From Somniosus microcephalus (Eukaryota), in contig CM126205.1 in the NCBI GenBank assembly GCA_052327205.1, positions 301,258,001 to 301,322,000 on the forward strand: DNA of 64,000 bases, read 5' to 3'. Each line of letters starts with the position of its first letter. The stretch's first letter is position 1. Below the pieces are notes generated by a model. The model had not been told where the DNA came from and searched no databases. It worked only from the letters and a program-made list of their open reading frames with translations. Of this stretch, positions 47,274-50,015 are shown piece by piece. The position numbers were made by a program, and so were the translations under genes.

Positions 47274-47348
47274 TGATAAGAGTCTGATCAGATTCCAGGA
47301 CTCGGCATCGGCTCGTCCCCCCGGCTCTTTTCACGACGCTTTACGGTC
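47274..47348 (-). other. ZEB2: 5'-UTR part of ZEB2 exon 2
   Basis: Preceded on the minus strand by a (CT)n polypyrimidine tract and ccgaag| acceptor (AG at 47350-47349). Ends CTGATCAGACTCTTATCA-ATG, resembling the recalled mammalian sequence before the start codon. Confidence 0.88.
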
Positions 47349-49551
47349 CTTCGGAGAGAGAGAGAGAGAGAAAAATAGAGGGAGCGTTTTACAAAAAACA
47401 CACACGCCAACAATGTGTTTTACGGTACTCATTTAAATACTGCCCGCGAAATAAAGCACATCCCGGCCACCAGCACAGTCGGCGGACTTGGGCTCCAGCG
47501 ATAGCAGAAGCCGGCACCTCTCCCAGCCCTCGGAGCCCTCAACGCACATCGCAACTCTCAGCACTGACTTTATCCCCAAATGTTCCAAACTGGGGCCATT
47601 GCACGGTAGCGGAAAGCCTGCGACTGTCCAGGCACATAAAGGCGGCTGAAATCCGCTTTTATATTATATATATGTTTTTTTTTAAATGCGATTGTTAGAA
47701 AGAAGCATGACTATTTTTTGAAGAGGGTTTTTTTGTTGTTGTTGTTGTTGCACTTTACTCTTTTGTTTGAGAGAGGGAGAGGCAGGGAGGGAAACAAGCG
47801 CGATCGCTGACTTACGAGATGGGAGAGGTGGACACACAAAAAAAATATGCACTGACGATCGATGGGGTCGTTGTGTGTGTGAGAACCGGCATCGTGCTGG
47901 TTTCCAGGACTTCAGAAATGTTTGATTTTTATTCCCCCTGACTGTAGGAAACGTGTAATCGTTAAACTACATCAGCATCTGCAACTGGGGTGATGAAAGA
48001 CAAAGTAACGGTGCCGGCTGAGATCAGACTCTATGTCAATCTATGCATTTCCGGCCGTATTGGAATGTGCACGTTTACCTGCATTTATTTACTTTTTGCA
48101 ACCAACACCCCCCACCTCCTCCCCTCCTCCCCCGCGCCCCCAGCAAATATTACCAATCCTCGTTCCACGCACACACACACACACAGCCCAAAGCATCAAA
48201 CACCCGCGATGATTAAAGGTGATTCCGGCTCATGTGGGCAAAGTGTAACTATAACATGACATGCATCTGGTAATTTCCCCCAAATTTTACAGATGTTCCT
48301 TTTTTATATATATTTAAAACACACACACAAATTGATTTACGCCCTGCGAATGATGGCAACCGATGGCTGGAAACGTATGATTTTAAAACCTGCTTTGTTG
48401 TGAATTCAAACTGAAACGAAACTGACAAATGGGGGGAATCCAGGCACTGCTCTATAAAAAGGTTCGCATCAGATAAACCAGCAGCGCACAGAAACTATGT
48501 TTAATGGCTGATATTTATTCCAGTACATTGTATATATGAAAGTCCGACCACACTCCACACAAGCAAAAAAAAACCCACAGCAACAAAGACTTTAGGATCA
48601 CTCAAAAAATGGCTAGTCCGACTTATCTTATGTAATAAAGTCACATAAGCGACCAAGCGTGTCATAGTGAAAAATGCCATCAGTGTGCCACACATAACAA
48701 CTGCACTTTCTTTTTTACTTACTCGGGTGAAGGGAAGAAAAAAATAAACAATTGCGACTACCTCCTACACAATGAATCACACTTTTAACACCACCCGCTC
48801 CCCTGAATTCTGATCAGAACTGACTTTAGTAATAATTCGCCTTCAACACCAACCCAACTTTCACTTCTGTCATTACAATTGATTTCTGTTACCCCCCCTC
48901 CTCCCCCCCACAACCCCCGAAGTTTGCTAGGGTTTTTTTTTTAACGCGGAGAGCAAGGCAAAAAGAAAGTAGAAACACCGCATAGTTCAAAAAGGGATTC
49001 AAAGTTTTGGTAACACGTCCATTCACAGCAATAGGGGGATCCGGACTGTTTCAGTTTGTTGTAAATTACAACAACAAAAAACAGTGGCTTCCCATAAATC
49101 CTCTACAATAAGAAATATTCTGTCGCTCTTTTAAATCCCTCGAAAATTCCGTCTTTAAATAAATGAGAGCCACAGTGAGGAGGGGAAACGCATCGAGAGA
49201 GTCAGTCGCACCGTCGCAGCAGGTAACGGTCCACTTGAATAATCCATTCCTCACTAAAATAACAAAAGCCAACAAACGAGAAACACACGCGAGCTGGACA
49301 AGAGAGAATTGCCATTTTCCTAAAGGATTCCCACCAGCTGACGGACTTGCTTTATTTTTCTTCACCAACACCTTTTTTTTTTACACCTGGATGTCAGGTA
49401 CTTTAACAAAGTTTTGCCCCCAAAATGCAAACAGCATTAAGAGGTGGAACGGATGAAATTCACAAAAAGTTTATTTCCTCGCGCGTATTTACAAATACCT
49501 GCACACACAATCTATCTATGCATATTATAGATATATAAATGTATAAAATAC
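47349..49551 (-). other. ZEB2: ZEB2 intron 1 (5'-UTR intron, 2203 nt)
   Basis: GT..AG boundaries between the two exons. Size is similar to the ~2.5-kb mammalian 5'-UTR intron. Confidence 0.82.
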
Positions 49552-50015
49552 CTGCTCTGTCCTGGCTGTGTTGTTTAGTAAGACTGGTAGGAGATCGGCA
49601 GCGTGGAGATGAAGGAGCATGAAGAGCAAGACGAGGTTTTTTTTTAAAAAGGGGGAGAGAAAAAAACCTTTAAAGACTTGAGGAAGGACCGTTATTCCTG
49701 CTGTGCAGGTTAGAACTGATCGCTCCGTTGTCTCCCACACCAGGAAACACAACCTGTGGACGGACTGACGTGTTCCGCTTGTTGGAATGACATTTTTCTA
49801 TAAAGAGAGTCCCTGAAGTGCGGCCCCAGAAACGCACGCCACCTATCTTCGTGGTAAGGGATAATTGAAGATCCGTAAACGTGATCATCGGTAGAAGTGA
49901 CGTTTTCAAACATTTTTCTCCCTCTCTCTCTGTCCAGTACGAATCTGGATTAAATTACCTTTACAGTCGCGGCCATCATCAGAGGAAGGGGAAGGGTGGC
50001 GGGGAATGGAAATGC
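49552..50015 (-). other. ZEB2: Non-coding exon 1 of ZEB2 (5' boundary approximate)
   Basis: Minus strand has blocks I recognise from the mammalian ZEB2 leader: CTTCAATTATCCCT..AAGATAGGTGGCG, AACACGTCAGTCCGTCC..AGGTTGTGTTTCCTGG and GATCAGTTCTAACCTGC..GCAGGAATAACGGTCCT. Ends at a CAG|gtattt donor (49552/49551). The TSS is not directly visible. Confidence 0.85.

What the first reader, a model, noticed from the sequence alone, without database searches (positions are those of the whole stretch)
47274..49620. Splice-dependent uORF in frame with ZEB2, blocked by one TGA
Seen: the AUG at 49620 gives exactly 23 codons to the exon-1 donor (MLLHLHAADLLPVLLNNTARTEQ). After splicing it continues GAC CGT AAA GCG TCG TGA (28 aa in total). 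The exon-2 UTR is 75 nt, so this frame is the ZEB2 frame, and that TGA (47333-47331) is the only stop before the main ATG; readthrough would add 48 residues. If intron 1 is retained the uORF ends differently (..EQVFYTFIYL*, stop at 49525). Recall: the mammalian leader has a similarly placed TTCATGCT AUG. Inference: intron-1 splicing may switch a uORF that controls ZEB2 translation, adding to or explaining the published IRES model.
Basis: partly seen in the sequence, partly recalled or inferred. Interest (0 to 1): 0.7.

Follow-up and report, generated by a model that had tools for sequence, protein, structure and literature searches.

The report
Shark counterpart of human ZEB2 uORF
The leader of this shark's ZEB2 gene holds a short upstream reading frame that is predicted to cross the first intron, likely matches one already catalogued as translated in humans, and likely just damps ZEB2 protein output; its being in frame with ZEB2 behind a single stop codon is not shared by humans.

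Summary
The coordinates and codon counts are right, but the splice sites are inferred. No RNA read crossed the junction, and an identical donor 53 nt further on would make the uORF splice-independent.

The uORF is likely the shark counterpart of human Ribo-seq ORF c2riboseqorf99, which also spans ZEB2 intron 1. In human it is out of frame with ZEB2 (52+69 nt) and stops 13 nt before the start codon. "In frame, blocked by one TGA" is therefore not conserved. An in-frame AUG behind one stop occurs in 22.7% of shuffled leaders, the exact layout in 7.4%. The TGA has no readthrough context.

One at 49888 matches human c2norep164 at 13 of the first 20 residues. A 6-codon exon-2 uORF ends in Ile-TGA 14 nt before the start, as in human, and the ZEB1 paralogue has a matching stop. 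Intron retention adds 31 AUGs.

Best reading: an old, multi-uORF repressive leader; readthrough is unlikely. That the spliced uORF silences ZEB2 remains untested. This scan had no earlier ZEB2 finding.

The parts
49552..49620 (-). Exon-1 part (23 codons) of the uORF in the finding; weak-context AUG; likely counterpart of human c2riboseqorf99
49543..49554 (-).
49491..49501 (-). Second candidate donor with the same CAG|GTATTT 9-mer (GT at 49498-49497); its use would abolish splice dependence
49525..49527 (-). TAA ending the uORF (31 aa) if the intron is retained or the second donor is used
47349..49551 (-). Predicted ZEB2 intron 1 (2203 nt; human 2519 nt), holding 31 AUGs and several further donor-like sites
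47331..47348 (-). Exon-2 part of the spliced uORF (5 codons + TGA 47333-47331, followed by AAA)
47288..47308 (-).
47201..47273 (-). ZEB2 coding part of exon 2 (73 nt); first AUG in weak context, second in-frame AUG 15 nt on in strong context
49670..49888 (-).
49710..49913 (-). 67-codon uORF (AUG 49913) with an internal AUG at 49793, shared stop 49712
49950..49979 (-). Two adjacent AUGs (49979, 49976; the second in strong context), 8-9 codons; inside the mRNA only if transcription starts upstream of them (inferred)

Best explanation
The AUG at 49620 opens a short reading frame that is predicted to cross ZEB2 intron 1, is likely the shark counterpart of a human uORF catalogued as translated, and likely acts as one of about seven upstream AUGs that damp ZEB2 translation by ordinary leaky scanning and poor reinitiation. 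Shown: the reading frames, the AUG count, the human ORF's coordinates and frame. Inferred: the shark splice sites and start site, homology of the AUG (by position and an M-L-x-x-L start), and any repression. The in-frame position behind one TGA is a lineage-specific outcome of indels at the end of exon 1 and the start of exon 2. What is old is the AUG positions and a uORF stop 12-18 nt before the ZEB start codon, not the frame or the peptide.
For: Human c2riboseqorf99 has 52 nt in exon 1 and 56 nt in exon 2, 35 aa, is labelled uORF and 'conserved', and has PhyloCSF mammals -54.29. With the human 69-nt exon-2 leader (c.-69-2A>C in IVS1) that is 121 nt to the start, so out of frame, ending 13 nt before it. 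A phase-1 AUG fits the human exon-2-loss allele annotated p.M1_N24delins. In this shark the same skip is out of frame, 24 codons to a stop. A second human uORF, c2norep164, lies 303 nt upstream; the shark AUG 49888 lies 268 nt upstream and matches 13 of the first 20 residues. Of 63 homologues, 32 carry predicted residues upstream of the start: 22 read the leader in one frame, 7 in a second, 1 in a third, 2 unclassified; 31 have no extension. None resembles the shark extension beyond its last three residues. The layout is common in shuffles and there is no readthrough context (UGA_CUAG motif).
Against: There is no RNA or ribosome data for this shark, so both the junction and the repression are inferred. 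The human and shark peptides of the junction-crossing uORF agree only at the very start, and I could not align the DNA, so homology of AUG 49620 rests on position. The exact layout occurs in only 7.4% of shuffles. The exon-2 leader is a multiple of three in goat, muntjac, eel, tarpon and bonefish (23 residues), in Aldrovandia (24) and in this shark (25). The ZEB1 paralogue also has an in-frame AUG behind one TGA. No paper I saw measures the effect of any ZEB2 uORF.
Confidence: 0.68

Rival explanations
1. Splicing switch. Removing intron 1 joins the exon-1 AUG to exon 2 and builds the uORF that silences the spliced mRNA. Retention, or a promoter inside the intron, uncouples it, which would add to or replace the IRES model.
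For: The human uORF spans the intron and stops 13 nt before the start codon, a position expected to hinder reinitiation (general knowledge). A review says the spliced leader contains 'a sequence that inhibits scanning'. Intron-1 retention correlates with Zeb2 protein in mouse. The mouse gene has three promoters and nine untranslated exons. In this shark, 49620 is the only exon-1 AUG whose frame reaches the donor.
Against: In the shark the spliced uORF stops 57 nt before the start, and retention changes it only from 28 to 31 codons while raising upstream AUGs from 7 to 38, so it cannot by itself let a scanning ribosome through. The exon-2 uORF and five upstream AUGs are present in both forms. 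The AUG context is weak. With donor 49498 there is no splice dependence. I could not read Beltran 2008 itself.
Confidence: 0.17
2. The AUG is inert. It persists because exon 1 is conserved as DNA (promoter, antisense overlap) or by chance, and few ribosomes reach or use it in the shark.
For: Weak context and five upstream AUGs. Shuffled leaders hold 5.0 AUGs on average versus 7 observed. PhyloCSF is negative across mammals for both human uORFs. All 7 shark-human differences in the first 20 residues of the 49888 uORF are one base away from a codon for the human residue, several of them radical, which fits DNA-level rather than peptide-level constraint (read by hand).
Against: Both positions are catalogued as translated in human, and two AUG positions plus a stop position appear kept between shark and human.
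Confidence: 0.12
3. Programmed readthrough of TGA 47333 gives a ZEB2 isoform with 48 extra N-terminal residues.
For: The frame is right and the stop is UGA, the only one in the way. Predicted N-extended ZEB2 isoforms exist in databases for goat, muntjac, snake, frog, eels and salmonids, though these need no readthrough and are annotations.
Against: The stop is followed by AAA, not CUAG or C; downstream folding z = 0.14 and 1.45. Human UGA_CUAG contexts give 1.3-17% and UGA_C 0.7%. The extension peptide is not found among 63 homologues, the exon-1 frame has 0 hits in 1.84 billion representatives (weak evidence), and human is out of frame.
Confidence: 0.03

Closest known systems
Human ZEB2 uORF c2riboseqorf99 (Ribo-seq ORF catalogue as tabulated in PMC10032668, supplementary file 2, row read)
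   Same: Starts in exon 1, crosses intron 1, ends at a stop in exon 2, similar length (35 vs 28 aa), begins M-L-x-x-L, similar intron size (2519 vs 2203 nt).
   Different: Phase 1 at the donor (52 nt) versus phase 0 (69 nt); out of frame versus in frame with ZEB2; ends at the Ile-stop 13 nt before the start, which in the shark closes a separate 6-codon uORF; peptide otherwise unlike.
Human ZEB2 uORF c2norep164 (PMC10032668, supplementary files 2-4, rows read)
   Same: AUG position and 13 of the first 20 residues match the window uORF at 49888.
   Different: 40 aa in human, 72 aa in shark; lies wholly in exon 1; not the uORF of the finding.
ZEB2-NAT / intron-1 retention / IRES model (Beltran 2008, seen only through PMC8005942 and PMC5758807 passages)
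   Same: Same intron; splicing state proposed to set ZEB2 translation; spliced leader said to inhibit scanning.
   Different: The passages read name no uORF; antisense RNA, retention and IRES were not shown for this shark (no Rfam match; no usable reads).
Vertebrate UGA_CUAG stop-codon readthrough (AQP4, OPRL1, OPRK1, MAPK10, VDR; PMC5868278 passages)
   Same: UGA stop between two in-frame segments.
   Different: No CUAG, no hairpin, no conservation; the known cases extend C-termini of main ORFs.

Membership tests
Orthologue of human c2riboseqorf99 | Lies in the ZEB2 leader | tested here: met
   Exon 2 24/24 identical to catshark ZEB2, exon 3 94% and in frame
Orthologue of human c2riboseqorf99 | AUG late in exon 1 with an open frame across the intron-1 junction | tested here: inconclusive
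   True for donor 49551, false for donor 49498; no junction reads
Orthologue of human c2riboseqorf99 | Homologous start codon at DNA level | not testable with these tools
   No vertebrate leader DNA was obtained; position (268 vs 303 nt after the upstream matched AUG) and an M-L-x-x-L start only
Orthologue of human c2riboseqorf99 | Same frame and stop relative to ZEB2 | tested here: not met
   Human 121 nt to the start (out of frame), stop 13 nt before; shark 144 nt (in frame), stop 57 nt before
Repressive AUG uORF | AUG-to-stop frame in the leader upstream of the main start | tested here: met
Repressive AUG uORF | Translated and lowers main-ORF output | not testable with these tools
   Human counterpart catalogued from Ribo-seq; no shark data; no repression test seen
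Conserved-peptide uORF | Peptide conserved with a coding signature | tested here: not met
   Peptides unlike beyond the start; PhyloCSF mammals -54.29 for the human ORF; 0 hits
Programmed stop-codon readthrough | Leaky stop context (UGA-CUAG, UGA-C) or 3' structure | tested here: not met
   TGA-AAA; folding z 0.14 and 1.45; motif
Programmed stop-codon readthrough | Frame and extension conserved across species | tested here: not met
   Three leader frames among homologues; human out of frame; other cartilaginous fishes not seen
ZEB2-NAT / IRES retained-intron switch | Antisense transcript over the donor, retained intron, IRES activity | tested here: inconclusive
   No Rfam match in 47290-54000; reads too few; IRES activity not testable

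The most novel reading that the evidence does not exclude
ZEB genes carry an ancient translational brake: a uORF ending in Ile-TGA 12-18 nt before a weak first AUG, present in shark ZEB2 and human ZEB2, with the stop also in shark ZEB1. Intron-1 splicing couples an exon-1 AUG to exon 2 and so creates the 'scanning inhibitor' of the spliced ZEB2 mRNA. This would explain the intron-retention effect without an IRES, could set the choice between the first AUG and the strong AUG five codons later, and would make leader variants candidates for ZEB2 dosage disease.
Probability: 0.2. Interest if true: 0.65.

Novelty: new member of a known kind. Interest (0 to 1): 0.3.

Why it matters
ZEB2 is dosage-sensitive (Mowat-Wilson haploinsufficiency), and its translation is usually explained by an IRES in a retained intron. 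That two human translated uORFs appear to have positional counterparts in a shark, and that a stop just before the start is shared with ZEB1, points to an old leader-based control that can be tested with a few point mutants. The specific claim of an in-frame extension held back by one stop would matter more, but the comparison argues against it.

Tried and rejected
RNA evidence: no RNA holder was listed for the stretch. Laying X23, X1, X9 and X15 on 47290-50100 gave no joints, zero depth on the exon-2 part and only short stray pieces on exon 1; 280 of 286 raw reads laid were under 90% alike and mostly on a low-complexity run. The tool drops human-like reads, so this is no evidence either way.

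Protein searches: the 90-codon main-frame stretch of exon 1 gave 0 hits. The 49888 uORF gave no Atlas hit. Searches with exon-3 residues for exon-2-skipped products carrying an exon-1 peptide (48 and 54 proteins) showed none that I could assign to exon 1.

Rfam: 0 matches at E up to 1 in 47290-54000. Earlier scan findings: none on ZEB2.

Literature: Beltran 2008 and one catalogue paper were not held. The supplement of PMC13010147 was too large. The paper tool answered that it was closed when asked for the supplements of PMC13275300. Those supplements and the unseen ones of PMC7530721 may hold conservation scores, peptide or screen data for the ZEB2 uORFs. Listings showed no paper title on ZEB2 uORF function; most subscription journals are not covered.

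Rejected: readthrough; conserved-peptide uORF; reading the database N-extensions as proof of protein (they are annotations, many running into intron sequence).

Full report
Identity. The window lies on contig C4 of a 6.4-Gb genome. The ORF at 47273 matches catshark ZEB2 at 24 of 24 residues. The next exon lies about 85 kb on, outside the window, is 94% identical to the catshark sequence and joins in frame. The animal is therefore likely a shark (inference from that identity). A paralogue on C5, 47% identical in that exon, is likely ZEB1 (name inferred).

Observation. Every number in the finding holds on the sequence: AUG 49620, 23 codons to GT at 49551, exon 2 from 47348 with 75 nt of leader, 28-aa spliced product, TGA 47333-47331 as the only main-frame stop after 49800, and a 31-aa retained product ending at 49527-49525. 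Two cautions apply. First, the splice sites are predictions: four runs gave no junction and no useful exon coverage, and a second donor with the same CAG|GTATTT lies at 49498; with it no uORF crosses the junction. The human geometry (52 nt from AUG to donor) is closer to 69 than to 122 nt, which mildly favours 49551. Second, the layout is not rare: in 5000 shuffles of the two exon parts, 22.7% had an in-frame AUG behind exactly one stop, 11.0% with that stop TGA, 7.4% the exact exon-1/exon-2 layout, and 46% some junction-crossing uORF.

I counted from 50050, an assumed bound; the human transcript id puts about 102 nt before the AUG that matches 49888, so a start near 49990 is plausible. On that basis the spliced leader has 7 AUGs and the retained leader 38. 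AUG 49620 is the sixth and has a weak context. A seventh at 47308 gives a 6-codon uORF ending Ile-TGA 14 nt before the main AUG. The main AUG is itself weak (T at -3, A at +4), and a strong in-frame AUG follows 15 nt later.

Human comparison. Supplementary file 2 of PMC10032668 (rows read) lists two ZEB2 uORFs from the human Ribo-seq catalogue. c2riboseqorf99 has 52 nt in exon 1 and 56 nt in exon 2, is 35 aa, begins MLFLL and ends MRTAI-stop, is labelled conserved, and has 0 MS studies and PhyloCSF -54.29 in mammals. The human exon-2 leader is 69 nt (IVS1 c.-69-2A>C, table row in PMC10932183), so this AUG is 121 nt from the start, out of frame, and its stop is 13 nt before the start. Its phase fits the annotation p.M1_N24delins for that allele and the report that a leader splice mutation loses only exon 2 (PMC2174447 passages); linking them to this AUG is my inference. 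In the shark the same skip would be out of frame. c2norep164 begins MLTLRALQLSLPTKIGGACF; the window uORF at 49888 begins MITFTDLQLSLTTKIGGVRF, 13 of 20 identical by eye. The spacing between the two AUGs is 303 nt in human and 268 nt here. All seven differences are single-base reachable and PhyloCSF in mammals is -42.81, so this looks like DNA-level constraint.

Other vertebrates. Among 63 homologues, 31 have no residues before the canonical start. Of the other 32, 22 read the exon-2 leader in the frame ending 'PSD..LS', open and without a stop; 7 unnamed contig ORFs read it as 'MRAAIW', where W is likely a TGA read under another code (inference), putting the Ile-TGA in frame six codons before the start; 1 reads it in the third frame like the shark; 2 were unclassified. 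So the frame of the conserved stop relative to ZEB2 takes all three values. In the ZEB1-like paralogue the same element aligns to the window leader and its TGA is in frame, 12 nt before the start. These are predicted proteins, not DNA alignments, and no other cartilaginous-fish leader was seen: the three named shark and chimaera ZEB2 entries shown (P0046, P0058, P0099) have no extension.

Readthrough. TGA 47333 is followed by AAA and the next 46 nt fold no better than shuffles (z 0.14; 1.45 for a shorter part). Known vertebrate cases use UGA_CUAG (PMC5868278 passages). The blocking TGA is not the conserved one. Readthrough is unlikely.

Mechanism. Most likely, ribosomes scanning the spliced leader are lost at several uORFs, the last of which ends too close to a weak start for easy reinitiation (general knowledge), keeping ZEB2 output low; the uORF in the finding is one contributor. 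Shown: frames, counts, human coordinates. Inferred: shark splicing, AUG homology, repression. But retention adds 31 AUGs, so relief needs an IRES, a shunt or a transcript starting inside the intron. The mouse gene has three promoters and nine untranslated exons (PMC8304685 passages), and the shark intron has further donor-like sites near 48722, 48080 and 47815.

Literature seen. Passages: PMC8304685, PMC5758807, PMC8005942, PMC10932183, PMC2174447, PMC5868278, PMC9917990, 10.64898/2026.02.23.707583 (not relevant). Supplement rows and passages: PMC10032668 (no ZEB2 in the main text). PMC7530721: no ZEB2 in the main text, supplements unseen. Beltran 2008, Zweier 2006, Verstappen 2008 and Nelles 2003 were seen only as cited. 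Listings showed no title on ZEB2 uORF function or shark-human conservation; coverage is limited to open papers, and unseen supplements may bear on it.

Verdict. A real but largely ordinary feature: the likely shark counterpart of a catalogued human uORF, with the headline frame-and-stop arrangement not conserved. Interest 0.3. The part worth keeping is the apparent shark-to-human conservation of two uORF starts and of a stop just before the ZEB start.

Noticed in passing
window 49670-49888 (-): 72-codon uORF whose first 20 residues match human ZEB2 uORF c2norep164 at 13 positions; the human peptide was detected after overexpression and used in an interactome screen. Better conserved than the uORF of the finding.
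   Followed up: partly
window 47288-47308 (-) and L001 about 4647-4690 (-): A short element ending in Ile-TGA just before the start codon is shared by ZEB2 and the ZEB1-like paralogue of this genome; in L001 the codon five before that stop is ACG rather than ATG.
   Followed up: partly
L001, 258 nt upstream of the start at 4647 (-): The ZEB1-like paralogue has an in-frame AUG in good context, 81 codons long, closed by one TGA 12 nt before the start; whether it is transcribed is unknown. A donor-like AAG|GTAGGT lies about 93 nt upstream of the start.
   Followed up: no
L002 4329-4394 (+), G000:C5 about 59,021,330: A second, diverged copy of the ZEB first coding exon with its GT donor lies about 250 kb upstream of the ZEB1-like gene on the opposite strand; partial duplicate or extra gene.
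   Followed up: no
window 47256-47273 (-): The first ZEB2 AUG is in weak context and a second in-frame AUG five codons on is in strong context, so two N-termini are possible next to the NuRD-interacting motif.
   Followed up: no
window 48578-48759 and 48976-49263: Contigs of run X1 (a relative, RNA by guess) match intron 1 at 97-98%: conserved intron sequence, unspliced RNA, alternative exons or DNA.
   Followed up: no
window 48722, 48080, 47815 (-): Donor-like sites inside intron 1 that could end alternative untranslated first exons, as described for mouse.
   Followed up: no
proteins P0010, P0011, P0028, P0029, P0032, P0038: Database ZEB2 isoforms of ruminants and eel-group fishes start 3-6 residues before exon 2 and read the whole exon-2 leader in frame without a stop; predicted, not shown to be made.
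   Followed up: partly
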